From the IMG/VR virus record IMGVR_UViG_3300020473_000016: a DNA stretch of 64,000 nucleotides; one strand, written 5' to 3'. This DNA comes from a virus. Shown here piece by piece: positions 18,473-52,018 of the stretch. Both the position numbers and the translations under genes were made by a program. Below the pieces are notes generated by a model. The model did not search any database, had not been told where the DNA came from, and saw only the letters and a program-made list of their open reading frames with translations. Within the stretch, counting starts at the first letter, position 1; every line of letters begins with the position of its first letter.

Positions 18473-19674
18473 TAGAATGCCCTTATTATCATTATGACCG
18501 TTTGAGATGGTGTGTTGTTATCCATTACTATATTTAACGCACTATCAATGTTAGATACATTAACAGTATAAGATTGTACATTATTAATAGCAATATTTGA
18601 AGGTGGTCTCAGTCCAGCAGCAGTCATAGAAATATCAAATGAAAAATGATTATGCGGAGCAAGAGTTCCTTCTGTAAAATCTTCACCTGAATGACTTATA
18701 TTTGTTGGGTATGTAGTAGTCTGATCACCATTCAAATAGTTTACTCTACCCATAATATTTGTTGGTGGTGGAAAGACACCAGTGTGTCCAACCATTGAGT
18801 GTCCATAATTATAAGTGTCACTAAACTCAGGTGTATTACCACCTCCTTGTGGTAGAGTTCTTACTAAACCAGTTTCAGGTACAAGAGTCTTTGTTGCAGG
18901 GTCAAAAGTTAATGTTTGATCTGTTACAGGAAGAGTATTCTCATCATAATATGTGACAGATCCAGTACCATTAGCCCATCTATCAGGACTATCACCAGTA
19001 GCACCACTACCAGTTAAGTTAGCAGATTCATAATCAGGTGAACCACTTACTTGATATGCAGATGTTTCAAATACCTGTACATATTTACCCTCAGTTTGAG
19101 CAGTTGTATATTGACCTGGATGTCTATGAGCAGGTGTATGATCTATACCTAATTTTCTACCAATAACATAATATGTTTTAGACCATGTAGGATCATTAAG
19201 AGTAAACTCAGTGATTCTACCTGCCATGTTATTAAGAACTGCCATATTAAATGTTATGTCAGTATCAGCACTGTAGATAGCAGGTGGTGTTACAGCAGTA
19301 CCATCACCATCTATTAAATCACCAACAACATTATTTGCGTCAGGTTGACCATACTGATACTTACCTTCCAATAACATAGACCTTTCAACGTCTACCATTG
19401 CCCTACCATTTAAGTCAGGGACACGAAAAATATCAGAAGCTTCATAATCTGGAAACTGACCTTTAATTCCAGTATCACTAGGACCATAGGTATTACCTAT
19501 CATAGATGCTAGTAATGGATAATCCTCAGCAGGATGTGTGTTTCCATCACATAGTATCCACCCATGTGGTACATTAGGGGGATTAGAACCCCTAAGCGTT
19601 GAATTACCTCCCCATGGCATTATAGTGCCAATGGGGGCGTTCTTCATTGTTTTGACTCTGTTGTAAAATGCCAT
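18472..19674 (-). CDS. tail-collar domain fibre protein
   Basis: start reassigned to MAFYNRVK (TAATG overlap); PIGTIMPW...GWILCDG...FRVPDLNGR. Confidence 0.85.
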   Translation of the reverse strand: MAFYNRVKTMKNAPIGTIMPWGGNSTLRGSNPPNVPHGWILCDGNTHPAEDYPLLASMIGNTYGPSDTGIKGQFPDYEASDIFRVPDLNGRAMVDVERSMLLEGKYQYGQPDANNVVGDLIDGDGTAVTPPAIYSADTDITFNMAVLNNMAGRITEFTLNDPTWSKTYYVIGRKLGIDHTPAHRHPGQYTTAQTEGKYVQVFETSAYQVSGSPDYESANLTGSGATGDSPDRWANGTGSVTYYDENTLPVTDQTLTFDPATKTLVPETGLVRTLPQGGGNTPEFSDTYNYGHSMVGHTGVFPPPTNIMGRVNYLNGDQTTTYPTNISHSGEDFTEGTLAPHNHFSFDISMTAAGLRPPSNIAINNVQSYTVNVSNIDSALNIVMDNNTPSQTVIMIIRAF

Positions 19675-22600: not shown

Positions 22601-25600
22601 AGGATAGTGATTCGTTGTTACCGTATGCACCACCAATTTCAATCTTAGAAATGTTAGTTGCGGTATCAGCAATAGCACCAAAGAAGATGTTACTGTCAAC
22701 AGAAGCACTACCAATCTTGATAGTTTGTTGTCCTGTTACTGAATCACCAATGTCGATTGTCTGAGCTGCTGTTGTAGTATCACCAAGTGTTAATGCAGTT
22801 GCATCACCAGCAATATTAACTGTGGTTGCAGTAGTATTAACAACATTGAATGTTGTAGAAGCAGTAGTAAGATCTCCACCATCAATCTGAACATCTAGAT
22901 CAAATAGAGCATTACCAGTGAAATTAGAGGTTCCATTAACATATAAACCATAAGTAGATAGATTTGTATCTGTTGCATTGATACCAACCTGTCCAGTACC
23001 TACAGTATTAGAGGTCTTAACCCTTAATGTTGCTTGATTAAGAGGATTATCTGCATCACCACCAACTAGGAATGCATCAGCACGACCAGCCTTAGTACGA
23101 CTAGCAAACTCTGGCTCAGTTAAGAAGTCTGTAGTTGTTGTACCACTAATGAATGCACTACCAACAACATCTAAGTTTGCTCTAGGATTAGTATATGTAT
23201 CAACAAATCCAGTCGCATGAGAATCATGTGATGCTCTTGTGACAGTGTTAATACCGACTCTATAATCACCTATAGAACCAGCACCAGATGCTAGAGTGTT
23301 TCTAACAAGAGTTCTGATTGCATCAGCACCAACAACACCTAGTTCCTTAAATTCAGAAGTAGATACATATAATTTCGCTGAAGCATTTTGAGAAATAATT
23401 GTTGTCCAACTTATAACAGCCTGTGCCTGTGCAGTAGTTACTTGGAAGTGAACATAGTTATTTGCAGGGTCAAATGCATCTCCAGAAGGTGAGTAAACAG
23501 GCCAACCTTGAGGGATGTTTATTAATGAAACTGGGTAGTTAGTGAATCTAATTCTAGAAGCACTTGTAATACCAAGTGAAGAGTTAGATAACTGAACACC
23601 ACTTGCTTCAAATGTTAATTTAACTACGTTACTACCATCAAATGTTATTGTGAATATATTTGATCCTGCAATTTCACTGAAGTAGTTGGCATATATCCAA
23701 CCAAGTGATCCAGATTCTCCAACCTCATCACCCTTAAGTAGAATGTCACCAGACGTAGGCTGAACACCACCGTAAGAAATATCCTGATTAGAATTAATTC
23801 TAGTACCACCAGCATTAACCATGCTTGTCTGGTTAGGTGTCATATTTGTTGGAGCACCAGCAGAAGTGGTGTGGGTCTGAATCATATAATTCTGACCATC
23901 ACCTCTGGCGTTAAATCCAAATACAGCAGCATCTACTCTGTTCTTACTGATACGAATATCTCCTTTCGTAGCAGGAGTGAAGCTAGTTCTATCAAGACCT
24001 TCATCCTGTTCTAATAGAGTAACAGGATCAGTAGGACTTACATTAGAACGTATAATAAGTACGTCTCTATTCTGTATTAGATCATTATCTTGAACACTGA
24101 TTAATACAGGAGATTCAAATGTATTAACAAGACTTCCATTACCACCAACAACTGTTATATTCTGGTTGAATGTTACAGCAGTATCAAATGTGGTTACTAG
24201 ACCTCCTACTACGTCATCCTTATCTCCATCATCTTGTAGTGTAGCAGCGTCAAGGAAGGTCTCTTCGCCTGTGATAGCGTTGATCTTCTTGTTACCTATG
24301 TAAAGGTCTCCATTGGAGTTTAGACCTGTATAGAAGACTATACCACCATCTTGCTTCTTAGACTGAGCATAGAAGTCTTCAGTTGGTGTTAGTACAACTT
24401 CCTGTCTGATTGGAAGACCAGTTGAATAGTTACCTGGTCCGAAACCAAGATATTCAAACGTATGGTTACCTGCACGAGCAATAGATGGTCTACGGAATTC
24501 AACGTAGAACTTATCATCTGTCATTACTGTGCTTGTACCAGCAATAGGAATACGACGGTCTTCAGAACCAGATGTAGCATTACCACTCTGTGCCTGAACT
24601 GAGTAAGTATTCTCTATAAATGCTGATTGTCTAACTAGATCCTCAACACCTTCTCTTGTAGTAGAGTTCTTATAGTCGTTAACTGTAACTAAACCATGAG
24701 TATAGTTATCAGCAGCAGAATATGCTTGAGGTGGATCAACTAATCCAGCAAATACGTTTTTCTCTTCTGCTGTTGTACCAGACTTCTGGAACCAAAGAGG
24801 ATCGTTTCTGTAGTTTAGAGGATATAGTTTGCTAACTGGCTGGGAGAACTTGAAGCTCTTGAAGTTATTAACAACACCAGGTCCAGTTGGGAATGGAGAA
24901 ATGTTACCACGTAAGCAAGTTAGATAGTAAATACCTTCTTGCTGTCCGAAGATACGTTTCTGTAATGTCTCTACGTTAAAGATATAGAATGTATCTTCAA
25001 TGATACCTACATCATTTACACTATCAACGTAGTATTCAATACCAGCATCGTCAGTAATACGATCACCTGGTGTTATGGTGTAGACATTAGCACCATTTTG
25101 TCTGTAGTAGTACTCAGGATATCCCTTAGAGATAAGTCTCTTAAGTGGTAGTGACTTACCAAAGTCTTGATCCTCTACCATCTCAGCAAATACATTACCT
25201 TGTGTAAATCTTGTATTTGCAAAATCACTATACTCTAATTTTCCACCGCGGATATTTTTTAGGATTAGGTAGTGTGAACTTCCAACATTGTAATAAGCAT
25301 GTATATTAGCAAGACCAGAAGAATAACCAGTCCAACTAATTTCATTGGTGCTACTATTCTGTGTCTTATTCGCTACGAATGATCCACCTTGAGGAGCATC
25401 AATTCTAACAGTAGTGAAGATCTCATTCTTAAGACCAGGATAGTTAACAACATCAACTGCATGGTCAAAGACATTAAGTTCTAAGTACTTGATATTAGGA
25501 TCTAATGGATCTTCTACATAACGACCACTTTGAATAGTGGCTGTAATACCACTCGTAGTCTTAACAAATGCTCTATACTCAACACCAGCGTTAGTTAGAT

Positions 25601-28600
25601 CCTTCTTATATGGATCATACTTAGCAGGTACACTAAGTGAATTACTTGCGAAGTCTGCTTCAGTGTATCCAATGTACTCATTCTGTTGTCTTGGGTTCTT
25701 GAATCTAGCACCGTATACTGATCCAGTTACAGGCTTAAGTACAATCTTCTGAGGTATTAACTTACGAGTATCGTCAGTTCTTCCCTTGATAACGAATCCA
25801 TTGATAGGATCTCTTGCGTTCTCAATATCTTTTGGAATAACATAACGTAACTTGTATGTTCTTTCATTTGCTTCACGCTGATCTTTAAGACGCTCATACC
25901 ACATATCAGTAGTACGAGGAGTAGATGACATATCTGTCTGTTTGATTCTCCAGATGATATTGTCATAGAAAACAGATGAAGGTTGACCAGTAACATCATC
26001 CTTAACTTTGATGTACCACTTACCTGAAGTAGTAACAGCATCAGTAAAGGTTGGATCAAATGCCATTGGTGATCTACGCTTGTTAGCATAGGTTGTAAAC
26101 TTAATACCAGTTTGACCAGGATCAAATGTAATTCTTACATCATTCAGTGCATCTGCCTTGCTTAGGTGGATGGTGAATACTCTATCATTTTGATAGCGAA
26201 CATAGAATGATACGTTAGGGTTAAGTCTACCGAAATCTGGGCTGGAACTATTTGTTACAGCAACATTAGGATTATTTGCAAATGATGTAGATACTAATGG
26301 TAGTTGTGATCCTTCTTCAGGTCTAAAGAATACTTGTTGAGCATCAGTAGAAGTAGATGGTTTGTCAACGATGTTTGGTATCTCTGTCTCAAATCCACCG
26401 TTACCAGAGAATGCAGAGGTTGTTGCTAAGTTAGTTCTATATGAATGTAGATCATATGAATCATCTAATACAAACTGATAGATATCAATCTCTACATCAG
26501 GATCAACAGAAGTTGTTTCAGATGCATAGATGTAGATACCAGCAGCAGCATTCTCTCTAGATGTTGCAAGCATCAACTTAGTTTGGTCACTACCATCGAA
26601 GTAGGTTCCACCACTATAATCAATAGGTGATGTAGTTCTACCTGGAGAAATTACATAGTATGTTCTGTTAGTTTCAAATCCATTAGGTAGTCTAACAACA
26701 CGCTTATCAACATCAACATATTTCTTAGTTACAGTATCAAAACGAGGACGTGGAACCAACCTTACTGGTGTTCCTGTCTCGAAGTTATGTGCGTTAGATG
26801 ATCCAGTACCAGTTGTATCAATAGTGAATACTGTTGCTCTGGAAGCAAGTAATGATGTGTTAACTGTCTGCTCTTGACGAGTAACTGATCCAAGACCACT
26901 ACTAATGATAGTAGTAATGTTACCAATTAATGTGTTAATAGCAGCAGCAGTTGCAGCACACTCAGCGTTGCTAGAGTTAGTTGTTGAGTCTCTAGTAATA
27001 TCTCTGTCAGCATCAGTAACAGGTCCGATTACTTTAGTATCAGGTAATGTATCAGCCCATGCACCCTCACTATATGTGAAGTATAGATTGATTGAACTGC
27101 TACTTAGGATAGCATTAACAGTATTTCCTGTTACTAACTTAGATCCTTTAACACCCAATTCAATCTGAGTGTTGCTAACAATTCTCTTAACGTATGTTCC
27201 TTCAGGAATGGTTGTGTATATTGGTGTAACACCAGAAGACTTAAGTACACCTTGCTCATAAGGTGATACTCCAGACTCATCATATTCAACAACACTCATA
27301 CCGATAACCATACCGCTTGAGTCATTAACATCGACTATGGCAGATCCAGCAGTAGTTGTACAGTTGAATGCCAAGAAGTCAAAGTTCCTCATAGCTGCGG
27401 TACACATGTTACCGACATAGTTCCAAGCATCAATAGTCTCAGATGCTTGACCATCAACGAAGTCTAATTGAGCATTAACAAAGTATGCTTCACCAGCCTG
27501 TACACTGTTGATGTTACCACCAAGACGTAAGTCATTGACAACAGCATCTACGATGTAAGCAACGTCTCTGAAGCACTTAGAAGACTCATTGTTAATAGTA
27601 AAGTCACCCTTGTTAATTGTTGGTAGTCCATTAAGATTACCAGCAGTAATAGAATCTACAAGGATATCGAATAATGTTTCAATAGTATTTCTTACGTTAG
27701 CACAATCCCACTCACCATTGCTTACGCTAGGTAGATCATTAAGATTGCCAGCAAGTAAACTATCAGTAAAGACACCAATTAAAGTATCAACTGTAGAAAG
27801 AACCTCAGCACAATTACCTTGAGTATATGTGGTTGGTTGTGTTGGTTCTGTTCTTGTAATGCTGTTAAGGTTACCAACAGCAGCATCAGTACCTACACCC
27901 TGAATAATAATATCCATCAAGGTGTCTGTTGCTGATACCATAGAAGCACATGTAGGTGCATCAAATAGGTTGATCAATGTTAGATCTTTAACCTGTTGGT
28001 TAGTAGCATCAGGAGTCCAGTTGGTAGGTGTAACTGTTACGTTCTGAATTACATCTTCTACAACTGCTTTTACTTTCTTATAAACTTCAGCAACTTCTGT
28101 ACGCTCACTCTGTGGCATAAGAAGTGGAACACCATTGAAGTTATTAGTTACGAAACCATTACCTATATCATAGATCTTATGGTTACCACCATACTTCATG
28201 TTGTATGCTAAGTCTCTAACAACGTCATAAACGTCATCAAGACAATCTTGCTCTGTGTATCCAGCAGCAGGAGTATAAGAAGGATGAACTACCTTCATCT
28301 GTTCGTATGCTTCCTTAGCAATGAACTTAGAGTTAGCAAGAAGTAATACAGATACATCAGCATTAGCATCAGATACTATTGGTGGTTCACCAGTAGTGTC
28401 AGTAGTAATACTTGTATCTTTCTGTGATAGTTGGTTATTAATTGCAAGATTGATTTGATCTTGAATCTTATTCAAACCAACAACTGTTTGGTTAACCTCT
28501 CCTTGTACACCATTGCTTAGTAGTGCATTACCAGAGAAGTATGTCTTAAGATAAGAGATAGTGTACTCGTTACCACCGAACCAAAGATCTTGTGCTATAG

Positions 28601-31600
28601 CATCAATGATTCTACCTAAGTCTCTTCTACACTTAGTTTCATAGTTTGTAGAAGCATGGTTAGAATCGTATACATTGATAGCATTGATTGCTTCAGTGAT
28701 AATGTTATTCTTGTTAGCAAGTATAAGGTTGCGTGCATCCTTGTTACGGCTAGCATTTAGAGAAGAATCATCTCTAAAGATTGTAACTGCATTATTCTCA
28801 GCAGATACAAATGTGTGAGGATATTCACCACCTTGAATTACAAGTGCTCTCTCAATACCATTTGTTTGAGCAGATACAAATGTATGTGCAGTAGTATTTG
28901 TGGATGGAACATTCTTAAGAACTTGTACATCAAATGTATTTGAAGTTACATTAGAGATCTTTAACCACTTACCTGAAGATGGATCTGTTGCACGAGGATA
29001 AGTATGGTTTGTAGCATTACTATCCTGAGCACAAGTGAATGTTAGAGAGTTGTTTGCAATCTTAATATGCTCACCCTCTACAAAACCATGACCATTAACG
29101 GTCAATGTCATCACACCAGTAGAAGGATTGTAAACAGCATTAGTTGCTGTAGTTGTATTGCTGGTGTTAACGAATGTATGAGTGTAGTTACCTCCAGCGA
29201 TGACTGCTCCTGTTGCAGCAGATACAAATGTATGTGCTGTAGTATTAGAAGAAGTACCAACGTTAAGTGTAATACTATCTGAAGTTACAGATGCAATACT
29301 AATTGCAGTATCGTATGCAGGATCTCCAGATCTAGGATAGGTATGGTTAGTAGCATTGCTATCCTGATCACATGTAAATGTTAATGAGTTGTTACCTAGT
29401 TTTATAGATGTGCCAGCTGTAAGTGTGTGAGCACCAATTGTAAGTACCAAGACACCAGAGGTGGGATTGTAGGTAGCTCCACTAACATTGTAGTTAACAA
29501 TAGGAGATTGGCCAACGTTAACTGTGACTGTACCAGTCTGTCTTTCGAGTCCATTTGATGTAGCAGATACGAATGCATGAGTAGATGTTTCTGAAGTAGC
29601 ACCAACATTAACTTTGAATGTATCAGCAGTAACAGCAGAAATTTGTAACCACTTGCCACTTACAGGGTCAGTTGCTCTAGGATAAGTATGCTGAGAAGCA
29701 TTACCATCTAAAGCACAAGTCATTGTCAATGAATTGTCAGCGATCTTAACCATATCGCCATTAGCAAATCCATGAGCAGTGACTGTAAGAATTAATTCTC
29801 CAGTAGAAGGAGTATATGCAGCACCACTTACTGTATGATTTGTTGATCCAACTGCGGTAACATCTAATGCAGTGTTATACTTAGGATCAGTTGTTCTAGG
29901 ATAGGTATGGTTTGTACCATTATTATCCATACCACATGTAAAGGTTAAAGCATCTTTTGCTAACCTGATACTTGTTCCTACGTTAATAGTATGACTAGGA
30001 AGAGTAAGAACTAAGTCACCTGTTACAGGATTGTATGTGGCATTATTAATATCATATCCATTTGCCTGTGTCTTACCAACGTTAACAGTAATTGTATTGG
30101 TTGTAGTAGAACTAATAGGTAGTTTCTCACCATATACAGGATCAGTAGCACGAGGATATTTGTGCTGTGTAGCGTTGTTATCTTGAGCACATGTGAATGT
30201 TAATGAATCTGCATTAATGCTAAGTGAATCACCTGCTTTCTCGATACCATTAGCAGTTGCAGATACAAAGTTATGTGGATAGTTACCACCAGTTGTAATG
30301 GCATTAGCATTAGCACCAGCCCAAACATGAGTGTATGTTCCACCAGTCTTAACAGAACTTGCAACAGCACTAACAAATGAGTGTGCAGTTGTGTTAGAAG
30401 ATACACCAATGAATAACTTTATAGTACCACTCTGCTTGATTAATCCATTAGTGGATGCAGAAACAAATGAGTGTGTGTACTGGTCATTAACACCAGAGAT
30501 ACCTACATTAACTTCAAATGTATTTGCAGTCTTATTAGCAACAGTTAACCACTCATCATATGATGGGTCTGTTGTACGTGGGTAACTATGGTTAGTTGCG
30601 TTACTATCTTTAGAACATGTAAATGTTAGAGATTCCTTAGCAAACTTAATCTTGTCACCGTTGTTTAATCCATGACCATTAAGAGTTAATACCATTACAC
30701 CACTAGCAGGTGTATAAGTTGCACCAGTTACAGTAGCAGTTGTAGTACCAACTTCCTCAATGTAGATAGAGTTGTCATAGAATGGGTCTTTCTTATATGA
30801 TAGACCATTAGCACTTGCACTTACAAATGTATGTGCAGTTACGTTAGTAGAAGGTTGTTGTGCTAGTACTTGTACTTGGAAAGTATTTGTTTGTACATTA
30901 AAGATCTTCAACCACTTACCACTTACAGGGTCGGATGCTCTTGGATATGTGTGGTTAGTATTGTTACTGTCTTGAGCACAAGTAAATGTTAATGAATCAT
31001 CTGCTAACTTGATTTGCTCACCATTATTAAATCCATGATTAGCAATAGTTAGTTCTAAGATACCAGTAGTAGGATTGTAGTCTGCATCAGTTACAGTTGC
31101 AGTCTCTACAGTAGTTCTAGGATAACTGTGGTTAGTTGCGTTACCATCCTGAGCACAGGTAAAGGTTACAGCACCATCAGCTAACTTGATACTATCATTA
31201 GGTTTAGTAATACTGTTGGCAGCAGCAGAAACAAAACTATGTGTAGTTGTGTTTGTAGAAGGTACTGCGGCTAATACTTGTACATCAAATGTATCTGTAG
31301 TTACACCACTAATCTCTAACCATGAACCACTTACAGGGTCAGTAGCACGAGGATATGAGTGGTTAGTACCATTACTATCTTGATCACAAGTAAAGGTTAA
31401 AGCACCATCATCAATTCTAACTTTCTCTCCATTCTGGAAACCATGTCCAGCAACAGTGATTGTAATAATACCTGTATTAGGATTATAGTTAGCAGCAGTT
31501 GGTGTATATCTATCAGCACCACGTAGATTATGCTGACCAATGGTTAGTTCCATCAAACCTGTTGTAGGTACAAAGGAAGCATTGGAAGGAGTATATTCTA

Positions 31601-34600
31601 CAAGAGGTGATGCTCCAACATTAACTGTTATACTATTTGAAGTAGTTCCTGTAATCTGTATTGCTTCACCAGATACAGGGTCAGTTAGTCTTGGATATGA
31701 ATGAACTGAAGAATAGTCATCCATTGAGCAGGTAAACTTCAATGAGTTATCTGCAATCTTAATGAATGTACCAGTCTGTAAAGTGTGACTACCTATTAGT
31801 AATTCTAGATCACCTGTGGTAGCATTGTAAGTACCTTGTTGAGGAGTGAAGTTAACAGTAGGAGATGCTCCAACGTTTACATCAACTGTATTCGTTGTTG
31901 CTCCTGTAATTGTTAACCATGCTCCACTAGCAGGGTCGGATGCTCTAGGATAAGTATGATTAGTATAATCTCCATCCATTCCACATGTGAATGTTAGAGA
32001 ATCATCTGCAATCTTTATCTTATCTCCATCAGTGTATCCATGATTAGGAATAGTTAGTGTTAATAAACCATTACCAGGAGTGTATGATGCATTAGTTGCT
32101 GTAGTTGTAGCAGATCCAGTAAATCCATGACTAGCAATAGTTAATACTAAATCTCCAGTCTCAGCATTGTAAGTAGCACCTGTTGGTGTATAAGAAACAG
32201 ATGGGTTTGCTGGATCAACAGTAATAGTATTGTCAGATACTGTTAATAGATTAGCAATTGCTTGCTTACAATAATCTTTTGCTCTATTGAAAGCATATAC
32301 AGATTCTTCTTCCTCACCTAACAATCCATTTGATAGAGGAGTTCCATCTGGGTTGAAATATGTCTTGGTTGTAGCAATAATATTAGCGTTACCACCATCT
32401 CTTAAATCTTCTGAGATAGAATCAATAACATATCCAATGTCTCTCTTACACTTAGCTTCAGAAGAGGCATGTGAAGGAGCATACTCAAGAGTCTTAGACC
32501 ATGCACCATCTATAATTTCTTGTCTGTTTGCCTGTATTAAATTACGTGCATCTGCATATCTATTTGCAGCAGGATCTAGTCCTGGATTGACATAAGATAC
32601 GTTTCTAAGAGCAGGATATTTCTCTAGGATATAACCAAATACTTCCTCCTGCATCATGCGACGGTTGCTTTCAATTAAGTTAGCAGCGTCAGCAAATGCG
32701 TTATTAACTGATAATCCAGAAGGATTAAGTATAGAACCCTTAGCGATGTACTTAACAAATCCTGTTGGTTCTAATCTTGCATTGAATAGACCACCATGAC
32801 CTTGATAAGATGGTTCCATCTTAACAAATAGTTTCTCATCAGACTTAGCACCAAGTCTATATCCTGTAATTGTTGCAGCAGGACGATTATTTGGATCACC
32901 TAAGTCATCACTACCTAAGAATAACTTAGTATAGTTGTTTGTATCCTGTATAGTACCAGCAATATCAACGGTATAATACTGAACCTTCTCTGTGTTAGCA
33001 GCATTATCTGTAATCTTTTGTGGTGGGATAATATCTGTAATGTATCCACCCTTATCTTGGTTAAAGGAGAATCCTTTAAATCCTTTAGCATGTAATGATG
33101 TATTACCGAAGTTACTGTTAGAGTTGGTGATACTCATGTCACCACCAGACTCCATCAAGAAGTGATCGGCATAACCAACAGCGAAGATACTAACACACTG
33201 GATGAATGAATCTTCAGATGCTCTAACGTGGAAGTTTCTCCACTCATCTTTCCAATAAGAATCACCCTTAGTATGATAAGGTACTGTTGCAAATGCATCT
33301 GTTAATGATGCTTGGTTCCAAGTATTTGAGTACTCATCATATCTAATGAATGCTCTATCGTCTTGTTGTAGTGATACACCTGTATACTGAGCAATAACAA
33401 CTGACTTAAATCCAGTTGCTTTTAGACCATTAGCCCAGATACCACAAATACCCCATGTTGAACGGATGGAGCAGTTAAAGACGTATGGAGATGCAGATTC
33501 AACAGAGTCAACCTCTGCTAATGTCTGTGCATTCTGACCTAATGCAGGAGTTGAGTTTATATCAACAGTTTTGCCAGAGTTAATATTAGTACCAATGGCA
33601 GCAGTTACAGAAGGTACTTCGTAAATGAATTTACGAGGATCATTCTGATCAATTTCTTTGATTGGGAATATACCTTCAAGTATATCATCAATCTCTGTAC
33701 TTGATATAGCAACAAATTGACCTTGGAAGTACCCATGATCAACTTTAGTAGTTACTTCAACCTCTGTAGTAGATGCAGGGATAGAGGGATCAGTAGTATT
33801 ATCAGTGAACTTTAAAGACTCAATTATACGAGAGTCAGATAAAGGACCAACGATTCTGTTTTCTTGAACTCTAGGAGCAAACTCACCAGGATCATCAATA
33901 GTAGGTTGATATGAAGAAAATGCCTTAGCAACCTTTCTATAATATAAACCTAATTCTTCTGAATCAGCATATTCAAATACTGTTAGTTTATGGTGAGAAT
34001 AATTAGGAGCAGCTTTCTTAGTGAAATCATTAGGGTCATAATAAACTTCACCAGTACCAGCAGAGGCATTGTAAAGAGGAGATTCAGAACTTGTTTGACC
34101 ATCCTTAATAGTAAATTGCCAGAAATAGCAACCACCAGTAACATTGAAAATAGCAGAACGAGGGATATCTCTTTCAGTTACAGCAGGATCGGGAACATAT
34201 AGAGGACGTAGAGTAGTTCTACGAAGATCATAACCAACAAGTGAGGAACCACGAGGGATTATAGCACCACCCTCAGTGTTGTTAAACTTATAGAATATAT
34301 TATCAGGGTTGGATACATCTAGAATTGAATTATCTGTCCAAGCAGCATTTGCTTGATCAAATCCAAATACATCAATACCACTAGTGTCTACTAGACCTGG
34401 TCTATTGTCAATATAATGGATACCAGGCATCAACATGATAGTGAACTGATCGAACCTATCATTATCGAATCCTGGAAGGTATGAATACCTTGCAATCTCT
34501 ATAAAAGCACGCTGAATGCTCTTAAATGGTGTTACAGGTGAATTACCTCTATTAGATAAAGCATCTGTTGCGTTGAAATCATCGGGTGAAACATACAAAT

Positions 34601-34649
34601 ACTTACCAGTCTTACTACTGATAAGATTATCCAGTCTTGTTAATGGCAT
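19674..34649 (-). CDS. giant (4991 aa) virion structural / tail fibre protein
   Basis: single ORF under TATAAATA; N-terminal beta-helix-like region; internal repeats; T/G/N-rich fibre-like C-terminal half. Confidence 0.85.
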   Translation of the reverse strand: MPLTRLDNLISSKTGKYLYVSPDDFNATDALSNRGNSPVTPFKSIQRAFIEIARYSYLPGFDNDRFDQFTIMLMPGIHYIDNRPGLVDTSGIDVFGFDQANAAWTDNSILDVSNPDNIFYKFNNTEGGAIIPRGSSLVGYDLRRTTLRPLYVPDPAVTERDIPRSAIFNVTGGCYFWQFTIKDGQTSSESPLYNASAGTGEVYYDPNDFTKKAAPNYSHHKLTVFEYADSEELGLYYRKVAKAFSSYQPTIDDPGEFAPRVQENRIVGPLSDSRIIESLKFTDNTTDPSIPASTTEVEVTTKVDHGYFQGQFVAISSTEIDDILEGIFPIKEIDQNDPRKFIYEVPSVTAAIGTNINSGKTVDINSTPALGQNAQTLAEVDSVESASPYVFNCSIRSTWGICGIWANGLKATGFKSVVIAQYTGVSLQQDDRAFIRYDEYSNTWNQASLTDAFATVPYHTKGDSYWKDEWRNFHVRASEDSFIQCVSIFAVGYADHFLMESGGDMSITNSNSNFGNTSLHAKGFKGFSFNQDKGGYITDIIPPQKITDNAANTEKVQYYTVDIAGTIQDTNNYTKLFLGSDDLGDPNNRPAATITGYRLGAKSDEKLFVKMEPSYQGHGGLFNARLEPTGFVKYIAKGSILNPSGLSVNNAFADAANLIESNRRMMQEEVFGYILEKYPALRNVSYVNPGLDPAANRYADARNLIQANRQEIIDGAWSKTLEYAPSHASSEAKCKRDIGYVIDSISEDLRDGGNANIIATTKTYFNPDGTPLSNGLLGEEEESVYAFNRAKDYCKQAIANLLTVSDNTITVDPANPSVSYTPTGATYNAETGDLVLTIASHGFTGSATTTATNASYTPGNGLLTLTIPNHGYTDGDKIKIADDSLTFTCGMDGDYTNHTYPRASDPASGAWLTITGATTNTVDVNVGASPTVNFTPQQGTYNATTGDLELLIGSHTLQTGTFIKIADNSLKFTCSMDDYSSVHSYPRLTDPVSGEAIQITGTTSNSITVNVGASPLVEYTPSNASFVPTTGLMELTIGQHNLRGADRYTPTAANYNPNTGIITITVAGHGFQNGEKVRIDDGALTFTCDQDSNGTNHSYPRATDPVSGSWLEISGVTTDTFDVQVLAAVPSTNTTTHSFVSAAANSITKPNDSIKLADGAVTFTCAQDGNATNHSYPRTTVETATVTDADYNPTTGILELTIANHGFNNGEQIKLADDSLTFTCAQDSNNTNHTYPRASDPVSGKWLKIFNVQTNTFQVQVLAQQPSTNVTAHTFVSASANGLSYKKDPFYDNSIYIEEVGTTTATVTGATYTPASGVMVLTLNGHGLNNGDKIKFAKESLTFTCSKDSNATNHSYPRTTDPSYDEWLTVANKTANTFEVNVGISGVNDQYTHSFVSASTNGLIKQSGTIKLFIGVSSNTTAHSFVSAVASSVKTGGTYTHVWAGANANAITTGGNYPHNFVSATANGIEKAGDSLSINADSLTFTCAQDNNATQHKYPRATDPVYGEKLPISSTTTNTITVNVGKTQANGYDINNATYNPVTGDLVLTLPSHTINVGTSIRLAKDALTFTCGMDNNGTNHTYPRTTDPKYNTALDVTAVGSTNHTVSGAAYTPSTGELILTVTAHGFANGDMVKIADNSLTMTCALDGNASQHTYPRATDPVSGKWLQISAVTADTFKVNVGATSETSTHAFVSATSNGLERQTGTVTVNVGQSPIVNYNVSGATYNPTSGVLVLTIGAHTLTAGTSIKLGNNSLTFTCDQDSNATNHTYPRSGDPAYDTAISIASVTSDSITLNVGTSSNTTAHTFVSAATGAVIAGGNYTHTFVNTSNTTTATNAVYNPSTGVMTLTVNGHGFVEGEHIKIANNSLTFTCAQDSNATNHTYPRATDPSSGKWLKISNVTSNTFDVQVLKNVPSTNTTAHTFVSAQTNGIERALVIQGGEYPHTFVSAENNAVTIFRDDSSLNASRNKDARNLILANKNNIITEAINAINVYDSNHASTNYETKCRRDLGRIIDAIAQDLWFGGNEYTISYLKTYFSGNALLSNGVQGEVNQTVVGLNKIQDQINLAINNQLSQKDTSITTDTTGEPPIVSDANADVSVLLLANSKFIAKEAYEQMKVVHPSYTPAAGYTEQDCLDDVYDVVRDLAYNMKYGGNHKIYDIGNGFVTNNFNGVPLLMPQSERTEVAEVYKKVKAVVEDVIQNVTVTPTNWTPDATNQQVKDLTLINLFDAPTCASMVSATDTLMDIIIQGVGTDAAVGNLNSITRTEPTQPTTYTQGNCAEVLSTVDTLIGVFTDSLLAGNLNDLPSVSNGEWDCANVRNTIETLFDILVDSITAGNLNGLPTINKGDFTINNESSKCFRDVAYIVDAVVNDLRLGGNINSVQAGEAYFVNAQLDFVDGQASETIDAWNYVGNMCTAAMRNFDFLAFNCTTTAGSAIVDVNDSSGMVIGMSVVEYDESGVSPYEQGVLKSSGVTPIYTTIPEGTYVKRIVSNTQIELGVKGSKLVTGNTVNAILSSSSINLYFTYSEGAWADTLPDTKVIGPVTDADRDITRDSTTNSSNAECAATAAAINTLIGNITTIISSGLGSVTRQEQTVNTSLLASRATVFTIDTTGTGSSNAHNFETGTPVRLVPRPRFDTVTKKYVDVDKRVVRLPNGFETNRTYYVISPGRTTSPIDYSGGTYFDGSDQTKLMLATSRENAAAGIYIYASETTSVDPDVEIDIYQFVLDDSYDLHSYRTNLATTSAFSGNGGFETEIPNIVDKPSTSTDAQQVFFRPEEGSQLPLVSTSFANNPNVAVTNSSSPDFGRLNPNVSFYVRYQNDRVFTIHLSKADALNDVRITFDPGQTGIKFTTYANKRRSPMAFDPTFTDAVTTSGKWYIKVKDDVTGQPSSVFYDNIIWRIKQTDMSSTPRTTDMWYERLKDQREANERTYKLRYVIPKDIENARDPINGFVIKGRTDDTRKLIPQKIVLKPVTGSVYGARFKNPRQQNEYIGYTEADFASNSLSVPAKYDPYKKDLTNAGVEYRAFVKTTSGITATIQSGRYVEDPLDPNIKYLELNVFDHAVDVVNYPGLKNEIFTTVRIDAPQGGSFVANKTQNSSTNEISWTGYSSGLANIHAYYNVGSSHYLILKNIRGGKLEYSDFANTRFTQGNVFAEMVEDQDFGKSLPLKRLISKGYPEYYYRQNGANVYTITPGDRITDDAGIEYYVDSVNDVGIIEDTFYIFNVETLQKRIFGQQEGIYYLTCLRGNISPFPTGPGVVNNFKSFKFSQPVSKLYPLNYRNDPLWFQKSGTTAEEKNVFAGLVDPPQAYSAADNYTHGLVTVNDYKNSTTREGVEDLVRQSAFIENTYSVQAQSGNATSGSEDRRIPIAGTSTVMTDDKFYVEFRRPSIARAGNHTFEYLGFGPGNYSTGLPIRQEVVLTPTEDFYAQSKKQDGGIVFYTGLNSNGDLYIGNKKINAITGEETFLDAATLQDDGDKDDVVGGLVTTFDTAVTFNQNITVVGGNGSLVNTFESPVLISVQDNDLIQNRDVLIIRSNVSPTDPVTLLEQDEGLDRTSFTPATKGDIRISKNRVDAAVFGFNARGDGQNYMIQTHTTSAGAPTNMTPNQTSMVNAGGTRINSNQDISYGGVQPTSGDILLKGDEVGESGSLGWIYANYFSEIAGSNIFTITFDGSNVVKLTFEASGVQLSNSSLGITSASRIRFTNYPVSLINIPQGWPVYSPSGDAFDPANNYVHFQVTTAQAQAVISWTTIISQNASAKLYVSTSEFKELGVVGADAIRTLVRNTLASGAGSIGDYRVGINTVTRASHDSHATGFVDTYTNPRANLDVVGSAFISGTTTTDFLTEPEFASRTKAGRADAFLVGGDADNPLNQATLRVKTSNTVGTGQVGINATDTNLSTYGLYVNGTSNFTGNALFDLDVQIDGGDLTTASTTFNVVNTTATTVNIAGDATALTLGDTTTAAQTIDIGDSVTGQQTIKIGSASVDSNIFFGAIADTATNISKIEIGGAYGNNESLSYVKFGNRKVSYAGDATFGADKILGGDRTQPEQTVTLNTEAGIVSFFSGNTQTIDFGLNASEINIAGQGGSTTVRNNFEVDGETTLNGSVKLCGGTAAFSFIGNRAALGSTAFAHASGILGVGNYNKNVDIINVLELTQSQSGWNRLDTTGAGQWGGTTWQALRVGEGPGGTDLPALSGDQYYLPLEVDPGSYFAEGDYMILDAPLDVNAGTHPEIVRIIPGGLAGATSAPYIVTVQRQPLGTYTAIKTNHPDTLTTKTPIYKCNIAFDGTWTEQAIDASGVQENIYLASFGGTLQTQRDYVIIDREDTNGNGIFDQGEVFKLATPLTQNNKNFQVLDGCPGNVLFEVDTVTGNVIVGNDGVDGENGKLTVNGSLNFIGGCKTAWKETANGDGFIVGDIQANLTTITNVTNTQGLEVGDYVELSSNGGAVTLEQNQFVTTGGQTRQTDPQIVSIVGSTVTLNVAFGGAGTATGATLRASVNEKFSITDRVRDVFSIDACSGDTVLGNPSGTIYTVRSKWGTTAAAHAKGATVYTVLKDPKVDNGIATTFVDTVTPISTTATQLTVDNVTDFAINDFILVGYGSGGNEEFMQVSGTPVVTSGTAGYLPVTRVNNVANWPGAAKTHSDGETVWRVLTRETTVLEDAIPSTGTSVVAVNVKNSDVVPFFLDRFYALLIGDEIFEVTNTATTDGGIQMVKKNFHHGRLTVYDDVKFIGSSFDIMGTDNNVPILTIQNNDEHHFEAGKLVVNAATDISGFLRVFPSKCVEDPDAIQFTNKTFNPTFRVEPEYGDTYVGRLLDVAGIPATTASSTQQILTVRQLGDGGTKGYTINQDCSIDAFGYTGWKNKNGGHKSTFVNSNANITSNVNYIVAVAPSTGALVLTLPSTPETGDIIRFTEVGGSLTYNNSLVVRAPIVNGEPVAIQGDTEGTKLGGLSTPYGSGELVIQNKNASFGLIFVGSSDGNNFIPAAYQGWWLTEL
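26920..32705 (-). other. four nested phycobiliprotein (globin-fold)-like domains within the giant fibre
   Basis: KCKRDIGY, KCRRDLGR, DCLDDVYD and KCFRDVAY each followed by GGN; four helix-H-like motifs TCASMV, GNCAEV, WDCANV, AECAAT. Confidence 0.55.
28785..32195 (-). repeat. 11 copies of an about 100-aa beta-rich domain, recursively nested
   Basis: 11 x TFTC..D.N..NH.YPR and 11 x H.FV-type closing strands counted in the translation. Confidence 0.85.
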
Positions 34650-34687
34650 GATTTTACTCTGACCCTGCTATAAAAATATCCTCGTAT

Positions 34688-34695
34688 TATTTATA
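34688..34695 (-). promoter_or_regulatory. T4 late promoter TATAAATA for the fibre operon
   Basis: exact consensus 39 nt upstream of the ATG at 34649. Confidence 0.75.
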
Positions 34696-35761
34696 CCTCT
34701 TGCGTCTGAGTCCAGTTATCAAAACTTCCAGGATACCATAGAGCATATATCTCTTGCCGTCTAATATTTTCGGCATAACTTGACCTTTTTACTTGGTCTA
34801 ATATTGCAGCAAATTCCGCGTAAGGTTTGAAAGGTAAAGATTTAGCATATCTCCAAAAAGGAGTATCATACTTGGAACCACCTAGATAATGCCACAAAAT
34901 AAAAGTTTCAATCTTCCGCATTTGAGCATGAACCATATTATTGATTGATTGTCTCGTACCAAACTTATTAATTAAGTGGAGTGCAGTGCTTTCCGCAACA
35001 AATTTATAAAAATGTCCAGATGTAGCCTCTAATGGTTCTAAAAATGACAGCATATTACCATTGAGAATGGTACGTTCTCCTCTCCATATATTCTTTGCAA
35101 TATAATTATCAAACTTCAAATACCCATCAGGTTTTGCATTAAAAAATTTGCCGAAATTTTTTTCAGCAATTGATCGTGGCGTTATTTCACTACGGTGTAA
35201 GTAACCATAAGAAGTACTATCATGATTAGGAATAACAAACGTCCATCCATCAGGAGTAGCAATTGCTTCAGTATGTTCTAACTTAGGATCATAAGGTCCA
35301 GTTGCCAAAGAAACAGCATTAACTGGATTAGTTAATTTATGATATTCATCAAGATTACTTGGTCTACCTCTACAATCAAAGATATAATCAGCATCTATCT
35401 CTTGTTCTGGATCACTGATATTTTTCTCTATAGACTTGTATTGTTTCAAACATTGTTCCTTTAATAAGTTAGGAACATAATGAGCAGAGACTGAATGGAA
35501 ATAAAAATCGTGATATACATCTTTCTTACCCCAATTTTTATAATTTATTCCCCATTTCTTTGTTGCTTTAATATCATTATGACTCCAATTCTGATTAAGA
35601 GCACCACACATCAATGACACAACATCACATGTAGTGCCTTGACCTACCCTTTCAATAGGAACGTTAGGATCATGGTATATTTCTACCTCTTGTCCTAACA
35701 AATCATATTGCATTGCAGTAATACATCCACCTAATCCAGCACCAATTACTGCTATTTTCAT
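34691..35761 (-). CDS. flavin-dependent halogenase-like protein (tryptophan halogenase family)
   Basis: GAGLGG FAD motif, ATKKWGI (catalytic Lys position), GWTFVIP, FLEPLEATS. Confidence 0.8.
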   Translation of the reverse strand: MKIAVIGAGLGGCITAMQYDLLGQEVEIYHDPNVPIERVGQGTTCDVVSLMCGALNQNWSHNDIKATKKWGINYKNWGKKDVYHDFYFHSVSAHYVPNLLKEQCLKQYKSIEKNISDPEQEIDADYIFDCRGRPSNLDEYHKLTNPVNAVSLATGPYDPKLEHTEAIATPDGWTFVIPNHDSTSYGYLHRSEITPRSIAEKNFGKFFNAKPDGYLKFDNYIAKNIWRGERTILNGNMLSFLEPLEATSGHFYKFVAESTALHLINKFGTRQSINNMVHAQMRKIETFILWHYLGGSKYDTPFWRYAKSLPFKPYAEFAAILDQVKRSSYAENIRRQEIYALWYPGSFDNWTQTQEV

Positions 35762-36258
35762 TTCAATCCCCAGATTTGTATTGTTACTCTAATAGCAAAT
35801 CCATCTGGTGCAACAGAAGTTACTAAATGCTTCTCTTTACTTGTATTCAGTACCATAGTATTCTTCGTTGGTAATATTGTATTCCATTCACGAGTATCTT
35901 TGTCTTCCCAAATAAACCATCCACCAGAATTAGGATGCCATGTTTCATTCAAATATATGGTAGCACCAAAACGACGACCACTATCATCATGCATAGCAAT
36001 TCCAGAATGAGGTTGCCAAACATAATACTGTGTAACTATCTCACATTCAGGTACATGAGGTGATATTTCTTTCACAATGTCATTATGAATATCTTCAGAT
36101 GTCATTGCTGCTATAGTGCTACCAGATATACCTTGTCTCAAACCAGGTTCCCAGATGATTACACTAGATGCCCATTCATTTTCTGATAATTTTTTATTAA
36201 CTTCTTTTTTACAACGTGAAAAAAGATCTTCACTTAAAGCATTCTTTATTATTTTCAT
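35758..36258 (-). CDS. 2OG-Fe(II) oxygenase (prolyl-hydroxylase-like)
   Basis: IAMHDD...TIYLNETW...GGWF...H.VT. Confidence 0.85.
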   Translation of the reverse strand: MKIIKNALSEDLFSRCKKEVNKKLSENEWASSVIIWEPGLRQGISGSTIAAMTSEDIHNDIVKEISPHVPECEIVTQYYVWQPHSGIAMHDDSGRRFGATIYLNETWHPNSGGWFIWEDKDTREWNTILPTKNTMVLNTSKEKHLVTSVAPDGFAIRVTIQIWGLK

Positions 36259-36273
36259 ATGTGCTATAGAGGC

Positions 36274-36801
36274 TCATGGTCTCTTAAAACTAAGATGACC
36301 GTAGTTAGATCCCCATATCTTCTGATGAGTTATAGGATCTAAACCCTCATCCATAACATCTAAACCTTCATGGTTTAATATGATACTATTTCTGAGGTAT
36401 GTATTTTTCCCATTCCAATCAATAAAACATTGACAGTCTGGATCAGTACCACCTTCATATCGTTGGTCTCCTGTCTTTTTAAATATTAAATCACATCCTT
36501 CCCTGTATGTCAATAGATCGTCTGTCAGTAATTCAAGATTAACTCCTTGAAGGAATCTCTGTTCATCCTGCTTACGAATTTCATAGTTCTTGGTACGTAT
36601 CTCATCACCATTCTCATTAATGTCAATGACATACTGTAAGTATGGTCTATTTCTTAGATAATTATATGCTTGTTCTCCATAGAAACGATTACCACCCATA
36701 CTTTTATAGGTAATCCAAATATGAGCATACCTTGTAGGATGACTCTGTGCTTGTTTTTTATTGGAGAATTGTCCCTCTAATAATGTAAGAAATTCACTCA
36801 T
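36274..36801 (-). CDS. cpeT: CpcT/CpeT-type phycobiliprotein lyase
   Basis: LEGQFSNKKQAQSHP..YAHI...FYGEQAY...PY...GCDLIF...WGS. Confidence 0.88.
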   Translation of the reverse strand: MSEFLTLLEGQFSNKKQAQSHPTRYAHIWITYKSMGGNRFYGEQAYNYLRNRPYLQYVIDINENGDEIRTKNYEIRKQDEQRFLQGVNLELLTDDLLTYREGCDLIFKKTGDQRYEGGTDPDCQCFIDWNGKNTYLRNSIILNHEGLDVMDEGLDPITHQKIWGSNYGHLSFKRP

Positions 36802-37064
36802 GTCGGTAATACTTCAGGATTGTATAAATCTAATTCAAAAAATACTGGATGACATTCTTCTAATTGTAGATAGTCACCTGCTGCAAGGATGTCTTGTAAC
36901 GTGTACTCTGGATTAACTGCACATTCTGTTAGAACCCATTTCTCTTGCTTTTCTTCTCTCTCAAGTGTATCAAATGCAAAGGGCATGTTCTCAATATAAT
37001 ACAGTAATACTGGTTCTTTGTCAAGAAAAACATACTGTCGTGTAATTCTATATGGTCTTGCCAT
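36798..37064 (-). CDS. hypothetical protein
   Basis: 88 aa, ATGA-coupled to cpeT. Confidence 0.7.
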   Translation of the reverse strand: MARPYRITRQYVFLDKEPVLLYYIENMPFAFDTLEREEKQEKWVLTECAVNPEYTLQDILAAGDYLQLEECHPVFFELDLYNPEVLPT

Positions 37065-37091
37065 GACCTTCTCTCAACTAATACTATTTAA

Positions 37092-51833: not shown

Positions 51834-52018
51834 TAATAATCGTCATCCTTACTCTCAATGTATTCTTTGTTCCGTTTGCAAACACCATGCACATCTATTT
51901 CTTGATGAAGATGTGCCATAGTATGCAGTGCTTCTATACCACCGAAGCATATTATTAACATCATTGGTAGCATCCATAATGGATGACTTGCTACTTCTCC
52001 TGTGGTTCTTTTAGACAT
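51833..52018 (-). CDS. small membrane protein
   Basis: 61 aa, hydrophobic core. Confidence 0.6.
   Translation of the reverse strand: MSKRTTGEVASHPLWMLPMMLIICFGGIEALHTMAHLHQEIDVHGVCKRNKEYIESKDDDY

What the first reader, a model, noticed from the sequence alone, without database searches (positions are those of the whole stretch)
26920..36801. Candidate bilin-chromophorylated virion fibre: phycobiliprotein-like domains in the giant tail protein plus phage-encoded bilin synthases and lyase
SEEN: the 4991-aa protein has four blocks that align by eye with phycobiliprotein subunits. Example: RYADARNLIQANRQEIIDGAW...KCKRDIGYVIDSISEDLRDGG, compared with the R..A...I.AN...I...A...C.RD..Y.LR...Y....G pattern of APC/PC/PE. 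Cys82-like residues are C734 (KCKRD), C2007 (KCRRD), C2136 (DCLDD) and C2359 (KCFRD). Four helix-H-like segments resemble the beta-subunit GDCSAL...YFD motif: C2234, C2280 (GNCAEV), C2316 (WDCANV) and C2564. The 4+4 count is balanced, consistent with nested domains. cpeT lies 1.6 kb upstream on the same strand, and pebS and pcyA are at 51991-53356. ESTABLISHED: Cys82/84 with the following Arg-Asp, and beta-Cys153/155, are the bilin attachment sites of phycobiliproteins; T-type lyases serve beta-153/155; PebS and PcyA make PEB and PCB from biliverdin; as I recall, the physiological substrate of cyanophage CpeT is unresolved. INFERENCE: the phage may attach its own bilins to its own fibre, giving a pigmented, light-responsive or photoprotected virion. 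That would give pebS/pcyA/cpeT a phage-side purpose.
Basis: partly seen in the sequence, partly recalled or inferred. Interest (0 to 1): 0.95.

Follow-up and report, generated by a model that had tools for sequence, protein, structure and literature searches.

The report
Phycobiliprotein-fold modules in cyanophage tail fibre
A giant tail-fibre-type protein of a marine T4-like cyanophage contains four modules that are true relatives of its host's light-harvesting phycobiliproteins and keep both pigment-attachment sites, beside the phage's own bilin-lyase gene, so it is now testable whether the virus particle carries pigment and senses light; pigment binding itself has not been shown.

Summary
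The 4991-aa ORF (19674-34649, minus strand) has four about 115-aa helical units. A profile of 117 unit copies hits only phycobiliproteins in the PDB (best E 2.8e-6). It aligns helix B, the loop and helix E, including Cys84-x-Arg-Asp. AlphaFold models match only phycobiliproteins (Z 13.6 for one unit; Z 17.4 over 133 residues once a distant Cys-helix is included).

In a reconstructed unit 2, C2280 aligns with beta-Cys153. All the claimed cysteines within the aligned region (seven of the eight; C734 lies outside it) are invariant in 48 orthologues. The C-x-R-D triad is intact in 93% of 1,523 unit copies from 150 diverse proteins. Units occur only in cyanophages among 50,697 phage records.

cpeT lies upstream in 22 of 23 related loci. 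It co-occurs with the units in 11 of 14 reference cyanomyoviruses and both are absent in the other 3, but those 3 form one clade, so this is a single event. pebS and pcyA do not track the units.

Bilin attachment and light sensing remain inference. I found no paper describing this. Earlier notes of this scan report the same kind of domain on other genomes.

The parts
19674..34649 (-). Giant tail-fibre-type virion protein gene, 4991 aa
   Evidence: ORF. PHROG tail fibre and virion structural families 4527, 529, 5342, 701. It lies in a baseplate/tail gene block.
32232..32570 (-). Unit 1 (aa 694-806): helices A/B, E (C734, KCKRD), F, G. An extra class-I helix lies at aa 649-675 (32625-32705).
   Evidence: HMM hit of 154 bits. 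PF00502 hit, E 0.087. The C2316 helix docks on it in the complex prediction.
28770..32222 (-). About 1150-aa beta-rich repeat array (SLTFTC...YPR..DP modules), inserted after helix G of unit 1
   Evidence: Read from the sequence. No Pfam match. Orthologues have extra PBP-like units here instead.
28425..28760 (-). Unit 2 (aa 1964-2075): helices A/B, E (C2007, KCRRD), F, G
   Evidence: AF2 pLDDT 89. Foldseek and VIA hits are all phycobiliproteins, Z 13.6.
28014..28376 (-). Unit 3 (aa 2092-2212): E helix with C2136 in the variant motif DCLDD. It is nested in the G-H loop of unit 2.
   Evidence: HMM hit of 95 bits. PF00502 hit, E 0.015. Nesting follows.
27888..27956 (-). Helix H of unit 3 (aa 2232-2254), with C2234 at its N-terminus
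   Evidence: Helix 292-312 of the 680-aa model. The Cys is invariant in 48 orthologues. Assignment to unit 3 is inferred.
27747..27818 (-). Helix H of unit 2 (aa 2278-2301), with C2280 (TQGNC)
   Evidence: The VIA alignment spans model 24..359 against PBP beta 32..177, Z 17.4. hhalign of unit 2 plus this helix aligns C2280 with CpcB Cys153 (TQGDC), E 1.1e-7.
27639..27710 (-). Cys-helix with C2316 (WDCANVR..IE.LFDI): candidate helix H of unit 1, or helix A/B of unit 4
   Evidence: Invariant motif. It docks on unit 1 with score 0.70 against a best control of 0.01. A weak hhalign match pairs it with CpcB 152-172, Cys on Cys153.
27387..27587 (-). Unit 4 helices E (C2359, KCFRD), F, G (aa 2355-2421)
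   Evidence: HMM hit of 109 bits. Helices 418-480 of the model.
27015..27380 (-). Beta domain (aa about 2424-2545) inserted between helix G of unit 4 and the C2564 helix
   Evidence: Strands 484-600 of the model.
26895..26966 (-). Cys-helix with C2564 (aa 2562-2585): candidate helix H of unit 4
   Evidence: Helix 625-644 of the model. The Cys is invariant. Assignment is inferred.
34688..34695 (-). TATAAATA, a T4-type late-promoter-like motif about 40 nt upstream of the giant gene's ATG
   Evidence: The motif count in the window is not above chance; only its position is suggestive.
36274..36801 (-). cpeT: T-type phycobilin lyase homologue
   Evidence: PF06206, E 4.8e-39. Found upstream of the giant gene on the same strand in 22 of 23 related loci.
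36798..37064 (-). orf88: small conserved ORF overlapping the cpeT start by 4 nt
   Evidence: phrog_4134, function unknown. It accompanies cpeT in nearly all loci.
51991..52692 (-). pcyA (phycocyanobilin:ferredoxin oxidoreductase)
   Evidence: NF002760 at 233 bits, above its cut-off of 206.
52685..53356 (-). pebS-like bilin reductase
   Evidence: PF05996. Its closest annotated homologues are phage phycoerythrobilin synthases.

Best explanation
The giant late tail-fibre/baseplate-type protein carries four modules descended from phycobiliproteins. Each is a globin-like fold with helices A/B, E, F, G and H, but without the X-Y dimerisation hairpin.

The modules are nested. Whole domains are inserted into the G-H loop of an outer module, so helix H lies far downstream in the sequence.

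Each module keeps the Cys-x-Arg-Asp bilin site at the start of helix E, equivalent to Cys82/84. Each also keeps a Cys at the N-terminus of helix H, equivalent to beta-Cys153.

Most likely mechanism (inferred, not shown): during late infection the modules bind host- or phage-made bilin (PEB or PCB) covalently. The helix-E site would be filled autocatalytically or by host lyases. The helix-H site would be served by the phage's T-type lyase CpeT. The assembled virion would then carry bilins.

The most plausible use is light-dependent control of fibre or baseplate conformation, that is, light-gated adsorption. This last step is speculative.
For: Homology:
- The unit profile hits only phycobiliproteins in the PDB, best E 2.8e-6, with KCrRDiGy aligned to CpcA KC84ARDIGYY.
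- 47 of 117 unit copies hit PF00502.
- hhalign of the reconstructed unit 2 against 8 PBPs gives E 1.1e-7 over 122 columns.

Fold:
- The AF2 unit model has pLDDT 89.
- Foldseek's top hits are all PBPs, TM 0.65-0.75.
- VIA gives Z 13.6, and Z 17.4 at rmsd 2.4 A over 133 residues when the C2280 helix is included.
- The C2316 helix docks on unit 1: score 0.70, best control 0.01. The mark was reached by 58 of 80 solved complexes and 2 of 110 mismatched pairs. Runs agree in at least 34% of contacts, and partner pLDDT is at least 60. These counts hold only roughly, because my own alignments were used.

Constraint on the sites:
- Seven of the eight claimed Cys are invariant in 48 orthologues at 50-58% identity; C734 lies outside that alignment.
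- C-x-R-D is intact in 1,422 of 1,523 units from 150 cluster representatives at 50% identity or less.
- CXRD is the PBP/BBAG bilin-binding motif (PMC10151467).

Context:
- Units occur only in cyanophages among 50,697 phage records.
- cpeT is syntenic in 22 of 23 loci.
- cpeT and the giant gene lie within the baseplate/tail gene block.
- T-type lyases serve beta-Cys153 (PMC10452541).
- Cluster A and B T4-like cyanophages carry only T-type lyases (PMC10665884).

Light:
- P-HM2 has units and does not adsorb in the dark. P-SSM2 and P-SSP7 have no units and do adsorb in the dark.
- S-PM2 has units, and its light-dependent adsorption does not depend on host photosynthesis.
Against: - No chromophore has been observed. 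Everything beyond homology and conservation is inference.
- Unit 3 has Asp in place of the propionate-binding Arg (DCLDD).
- The helix-H segments alone show no significant sequence match to PBPs.
- The cpeT/unit co-occurrence is a single event, because the three double-negative phages form one clade.
- S-SSM4 has units but no CpeT.
- In Syn9-type genomes cpeT lies about 55 kb from the unit-bearing gene.
- pebS and pcyA do not track the units.
- The correlation with light-dependent adsorption rests on four phages.
- Virion location rests on annotation and gene context, not on proteomics of this phage.
- The 680-aa model has pLDDT of only 70.
Confidence: 0.5

Rival explanations
1. Pigment-free scaffold. 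The phycobiliprotein fold was captured from a host gene and reused as a rigid helical spacer in fibre and baseplate proteins. Cys, Arg and Asp are kept for a structural or other chemical reason, such as inter-module contacts, metal binding or redox. cpeT acts only on host phycobiliproteins.
For: - The modules lack the X-Y hairpin and occur in arrays of up to 34 copies, like structural repeats.
- Other residues (GGN, Asp at +14, Tyr) that are not part of the PBP bilin site are just as strongly conserved.
- Unit 3 has lost the Arg.
- No pigmented cyanophage virion is described in the papers found.
- S-SSM4 has units without CpeT.
Against: In phycobiliproteins, C-x-R-D is conserved for chromophore binding (PMC10151467). 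Keeping exactly this triad in 93% of 1,523 diverged copies, plus a second invariant Cys at the beta-153 position, is hard to explain by scaffolding alone.
Confidence: 0.33
2. The modules act inside the infected cell. They would work as a bilin sink, or as a decoy for host lyases, linkers or NblA-type factors, before or independently of assembly. Any pigment on the virion would be incidental.
For: - Cyanophages interfere with phycobilisomes in other ways, for example through viral NblA (PMC12695635, abstract).
- The units are PBP mimics with intact sites.
Against: - The units are embedded in giant late structural proteins with tail-fibre and baseplate homology, not in small soluble early proteins.
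- The search for small proteins found only fragments on short contigs, with no stand-alone versions.
Confidence: 0.12
3. Chance or convergent resemblance between helical repeats and phycobiliproteins.
For: - The window's own copies score below Pfam's threshold.
- Helical bundles often give middling Z-scores (note).
Against: - Profile E-values range from 1e-6 to 1e-7, and only PBPs are hit.
- Z is 17.4 at rmsd 2.4 A over the whole PBP core.
- Motif-level identities are present: KC.RDIGY and TQG[ND]C.
Confidence: 0.03

Closest known systems
Phycobiliprotein subunits (Pfam PF00502): C-phycocyanin alpha by sequence; phycoerythrin, phycocyanin and cryptophyte beta chains by structure
   Same: - Globin-like fold with helices A/B-E-F-G-H (Z 17.4).
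- CXRD at the start of helix E.
- Cys at the N-terminus of helix H, as in beta-153.
- The GG after helix E, as in CpcA.
   Different: - No X-Y hairpin, so no canonical alpha-beta heterodimer or disc.
- Embedded as 4 to 34 modules in giant virion proteins.
- Whole domains are nested in the G-H loop.
- Extra invariant residues (GGN, Asp at +14, Tyr).
- Chromophore not shown.
BBAGs, the bilin biosynthesis-associated globins (PMC10151467). PDB 8u0f ('Bacterial fluorescent protein') is the top structural hit.
   Same: These are non-antenna PBP-fold proteins. Some carry CXRD and bind bilins without a lyase, which sets a precedent for self-attachment at the helix-E site.
   Different: BBAGs are small stand-alone bacterial proteins clustered with bilin reductases. 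No phylogeny was made here, so whether the phage units branch within PBPs or beside them is unknown.
ApcE (the core-membrane linker). This comparison is from my own knowledge and was not tested here.
   Same: A PBP domain fused into a large multidomain scaffold protein, with a loop insertion and lyase-independent bilin attachment.
   Different: ApcE has one PBP domain, sits in the phycobilisome core, and has its insertion in the B-E loop. The phage has nested arrays in a virion protein.
CpeT/CpcT T-type bilin lyases and cyanophage CpeT
   Same: The window's cpeT is a clear PF06206 member. The family serves beta-Cys153 (PMC10452541), the position that the helix-H Cys occupies.
   Different: Its substrate in phage infection is not established. 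I could not read the primary study of phage CpeT (Gasper et al. 2017).

Membership tests
Phycobiliprotein family (PF00502) | Significant sequence similarity to the family | tested here: met
   The unit profile against the PDB returns only PBPs, best E 2.8e-6. 47 of 117 copies hit PF00502, best E 3.9e-7. hhalign gives E 1.1e-7. The window's four copies scored singly stay below the gathering score.
Phycobiliprotein family (PF00502) | Globin-like core fold with helices A/B, E, F, G, H | tested here: met
   VIA Z 17.4, rmsd 2.4 A, 133 residues aligned to beta chain 32-177. The single unit without helix H gives Z 13.6.
Phycobiliprotein family (PF00502) | Cys-x-Arg-Asp bilin site at the start of helix E (Cys82/84) | tested here: met
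   Aligned to CpcA Cys84 and CpcB Cys82. Three of the four window units have C-x-R-D; unit 3 has C-x-D-D. The triad is intact in 93% of 1,523 copies.
Phycobiliprotein family (PF00502) | Second attachment Cys before helix H (beta-153/155 type) | tested here: met
   C2280 aligns with CpcB Cys153 in reconstructed unit 2 and starts the helix that superposes on helix H. The Cys is invariant. The helix segments alone give no significant match.
Phycobiliprotein family (PF00502) | N-terminal X-Y helices that make the alpha-beta heterodimer | tested here: not met
   Structural alignments start at PBP residue about 30. Unit 2 is preceded directly by beta repeats.
Phycobiliprotein family (PF00502) | Covalently bound bilin chromophore | not testable with these tools
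   Needs biochemistry or mass spectrometry.
T-type bilin lyase (CpeT/CpcT, PF06206) | Family-level sequence membership of the ORF at 36274-36801 | tested here: met
   E 4.8e-39, 134.5 bits against a cut-off of 21, covering the full profile length.
T-type bilin lyase (CpeT/CpcT, PF06206) | Lyase activity on the fibre's helix-H cysteines | not testable with these tools
   Only synteny and co-distribution are available.
T4-like tail fibre / baseplate virion protein | Homology to phage tail-fibre families and location in a late structural gene block | tested here: met
   PHROG 529, 4527 and 5342. Neighbours are baseplate hub, tube-cap and wedge genes. A late-promoter-like motif lies upstream. No virion proteomics exists for this phage.

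The most novel reading that the evidence does not exclude
The virion carries covalently bound bilins on its fibre and baseplate proteins, and they act as a photoreceptor that gates adsorption. That would make T4-like cyanophages the first virus particles known to sense light directly. It would also supply the missing mechanism for light-dependent cyanophage adsorption and a phage-side substrate for phage CpeT.
Probability: 0.2. Interest if true: 0.97.

Novelty: new variant of a known kind. Interest (0 to 1): 0.86.

Why it matters
Two old puzzles would become directly testable.

1. Why do many T4-like cyanophages need light to adsorb, independently of host photosynthesis? PMC6628666, citing Jia et al. 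[quoted passage not shown]
2. Why do these phages carry a T-type bilin lyase, and only that type (PMC10665884)?

A phycobiliprotein-derived module with both attachment sites, present in 1,358 cluster-representative proteins (clusters at 50% identity) at E 0.001 or better, gives a concrete candidate for both.

Even if the modules carry no pigment, two things remain noteworthy. A host antenna fold has been captured into virion proteins. And whole domains, up to about 1,500 residues in total, are nested inside one loop, which is an unusual piece of protein evolution.

Tried and rejected
- Pfam on the whole 4991-aa protein at E 0.01 or better found nothing. phmmer of aa 1941-2620 against the PDB found nothing. 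Only profiles built from many copies show the relation.
- The long orthologue profile A2 against the PDB gave only weak PBP-alpha hits, E 0.19 or worse.
- The helix-H-like segments as a 39-column profile (A3) gave no PBP match in the PDB or Pfam.
- No whole genome is held for this window.
- The genome-contig scan with CpeT returned one mis-binned phage contig and no host PBP loci. PBP sequences for hhalign therefore came from four cyanobacterial plasmids. That set is small, and no phylogeny of the units against PBPs and BBAGs was attempted.
- A search for stand-alone proteins of PBP size returned only fragments.
- cpeT/unit co-occurrence gives a Fisher p of about 0.003 on 14 genomes. I reject this as a statistic, because the three double-negatives (S-SM2, S-SSM7, P-SSM2) form one clade on a gp32 tree.
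- TATAAATA is not enriched in the window: 4 found against 8 expected.
- The primary paper on phage CpeT is not held.
- orf88 gave nothing in the ESM Atlas.
- The chance-resemblance reading is rejected; see the rivals.
Full report
**What is there**

The window is part of a T4-like cyanomyovirus. Its nearest database relatives are Synechococcus phages ACG-2014e/i (78% nt identity over part of the query) and S-RSM4 (83% identity in gp32).

The ORF at 19674-34649 on the minus strand encodes 4991 aa. It matches PHROG tail-fibre and virion structural families. It sits in a block of baseplate hub, tube-cap and wedge genes. A T4-type late-promoter-like TATAAATA lies about 40 nt before its ATG.

**The four blocks are one repeated unit**

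The four 'Cys82-like' blocks align with each other. An HMM built from them finds exactly these four copies in the protein.

Homologous giant proteins on 80 IMG/VR contigs carry up to 10 copies, often in tandem with a period of about 130 aa. Across 397 copies the consensus is K-C-x-R-D-(I/V)-G-x-(I/V)-(V/I)-D-A-(V/I)-x-x-D-L-x-x-G-G-N. Cys is present in 383 of the 397, and Asp in 393.

**Homology to phycobiliproteins**

Taken singly, the window's copies give only sub-threshold PF00502 hits (13.2 and 15.7 bits; gathering score 22.2). Evidence from many copies is much stronger:
- Of 117 diverse copies (alignment A1), 47 hit PF00502, best E 3.9e-7. No other family is hit by more than 3.
- The A1 profile against all PDB sequences returns 113 hits. 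The 60 listed are all phycobiliproteins. The best is C-phycocyanin alpha at E 2.8e-6.
- That alignment pairs profile positions 6-68 with CpcA 35-103. This covers helix B, the B-E loop and helix E, with KCrRDiGy on KC84ARDIGYY.

**Fold**

A template-free AlphaFold2 model of unit 2 (aa 1962-2091) has pLDDT 89. Its Foldseek matches listed are all phycobiliproteins or PBP-type entries, with TM 0.65-0.75 normalised to the query. VIA-align gives Z 13.6, rmsd 3.3-3.4 A, 120 residues, with model 1-127 on chain 30-160. The unit therefore covers helices A/B, E, F and G. It lacks the X-Y hairpin.

**Nesting**

A model of aa 1941-2620 was built from 48 orthologues (A2; pLDDT 70). It aligns to PBP beta chains with Z 17.4 and rmsd 2.4 A. 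Only 133 residues are aligned, yet they span model 24..359 on chain 32..177.

That is possible only if unit 2 (model 24-133) and the helix at model 341-360 form one complete globin core. This helix begins right after C2280. Unit 3 and its own Cys-helix (C2234) then sit in between, inside the G-H loop of unit 2.

I reconstructed unit 2 plus this helix in a script and compared it with eight PBPs taken from cyanobacterial plasmids. hhalign aligns 122 columns to CpcB 39-171 at E 1.1e-7. C2007 falls on Cys82, and 'TQGNC2280' falls on 'TQGDC153'.

The C2316 helix (WDCANVR..IE.LFDI, an invariant motif) aligns weakly with CpcB 152-172, Cys on Cys153. As a separate chain it docks on unit 1:
- Score 0.70, best control 0.01.
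- The mark was reached by 58 of 80 solved complexes and 2 of 110 mismatched pairs.
- The runs agree in at least 34% of contacts, and the partner's pLDDT is at least 60.
- These counts hold only roughly, because my own alignments were used.
- Contacts fall on helices E, F and G and on the start of helix B.

A related Cys-helix might pass this test equally well. The result shows that unit 1 has an open helix-H slot, not which helix fills it.

As a profile on their own, the Cys-helices show no significant PBP match.

**Constraint on the sites**

C2007, C2136, C2234, C2280, C2316, C2359 and C2564, and also C2430, are invariant in 48 orthologues at 50-58% identity.

A profile search of 1.84 billion cluster representatives finds 1,358 proteins at E 0.001 or better, with up to 34 matched stretches per protein. 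In the best 150 of these there are 1,587 unit hits. Of the 1,523 that cover the site, 1,476 have the Cys and 1,422 (93%) have the full C-x-R-D triad.

CXRD is the bilin-binding motif of phycobiliproteins and of some BBAGs. The Cys makes the thioether, and Arg and Asp hydrogen-bond the chromophore (PMC10151467). Unit 3 of this window is a variant in which the Arg is replaced by Asp (DCLDD).

**Distribution and the bilin genes**

By tblastn the unit occurs in 218 of 50,697 phage records, and every one is a cyanophage.

cpeT (36274-36801) is a clear PF06206 member. In 22 of 23 related loci with at least 1.9 kb of upstream sequence, cpeT lies on the same strand upstream of the giant gene, in nearly all of them together with a small overlapping ORF (orf88).

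I searched 14 reference cyanomyoviruses with the A1 profile and with PF06206. Eleven have both units and CpeT, and three (S-SM2, S-SSM7, P-SSM2) have neither. I also searched five unit-bearing phages chosen because tblastn with this window's cpeT had not listed them. Four have CpeT. S-SSM4 lacks it but has a bilin reductase.

On a gp32 tree the three double-negative phages form one clade, so the co-absence is a single event and carries little statistical weight.

In Syn9-type genomes cpeT and the unit-bearing giant gene are about 55 kb apart. Adjacency is therefore a feature of this lineage only.

The two reductases at 51991-53356 are pcyA and a pebS-like gene. The pebS query found only 31 phage records. 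P-SSM2, which carries pebS and pcyA (PMC2984593), has no units.

**Light**

PMC6628666 reports the following:
- P-HM2 and P-HM1 do not adsorb in the dark.
- P-SSM2 adsorbs in the dark, though less than in light.
- The podovirus P-SSP7 adsorbs in the dark.
- In S-PM2, light-dependent adsorption does not depend on host photosynthesis. [quoted passage not shown]

P-HM2, P-HM1 and S-PM2 have units. P-SSM2 and P-SSP7 do not. This agrees with a photoreceptor role but rests on very few phages.

**Verdict**

The homology, the fold, the intact sites and the nesting are shown computationally. Bilin attachment, a role for CpeT on the fibre, and light sensing are inference. I put covalent bilin binding at about 0.5 and light-gated adsorption at about 0.2.

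Full-text searches found no paper describing phycobiliprotein-like domains in phage structural proteins. Earlier AI notes of this scan report the same kind of domain in other cyanophage genomes. My tests here were made independently and agree with them.

Noticed in passing
window 28770-32222 (-), aa about 810-1960: An array of about 12 beta-rich modules of 90-115 aa. Each has SLTFTC, then H.YPR..DP, then a W/L-rich strand, with one Cys per module. There is no Pfam match. In orthologues this position holds extra phycobiliprotein-like units instead.
   Followed up: no
window 34691-37670 (-): A tryptophan-halogenase-like flavoprotein (34691-35761) and two 2OG-Fe(II) oxygenases (35758-36258, 37092-37670) are interleaved with cpeT directly upstream of the fibre gene. 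Only the two or three closest relatives (L001, L003, L004) share the halogenase and the first oxygenase, so this looks like a recent insertion. They might modify the fibre.
   Followed up: partly
window 36798-37064 (-): orf88 (phrog_4134, function unknown) overlaps the cpeT start by 4 nt. It accompanies cpeT in nearly all related loci, which suggests a conserved partner. No family, Atlas or structural lead was found.
   Followed up: partly
   Followed up: no
P-SSM4 record NC_006884, about 16.6-17.1 kb: P-SSM4 has a 148-aa ORF matching the CpeT family above the cut-off, although the 2010 review PMC2984593 states that cpeT is absent from P-SSM4.
   Followed up: partly
window 39677-42544 (-): The 955-aa gp5-like baseplate hub protein has a C-terminal stretch (aa about 790-926) that matches the giant virion structural family phrog_701.
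   Followed up: no
gp32 tree: The clade lacking both units and CpeT (S-SSM7, S-SM2, P-SSM2) is the sister group of the window plus S-RSM4 clade, which has the most units (13 in S-RSM4, spread over three giant ORFs).
   Followed up: partly
S-RIM2, S-RIM14, P-RSM6, S-SSM4, S-WAM1 records: In these phages the units lie in single annotated genes of 18.6-25.7 kb (about 6,200-8,570 aa) labelled only 'structural protein' or 'hypothetical protein'.
   Followed up: no
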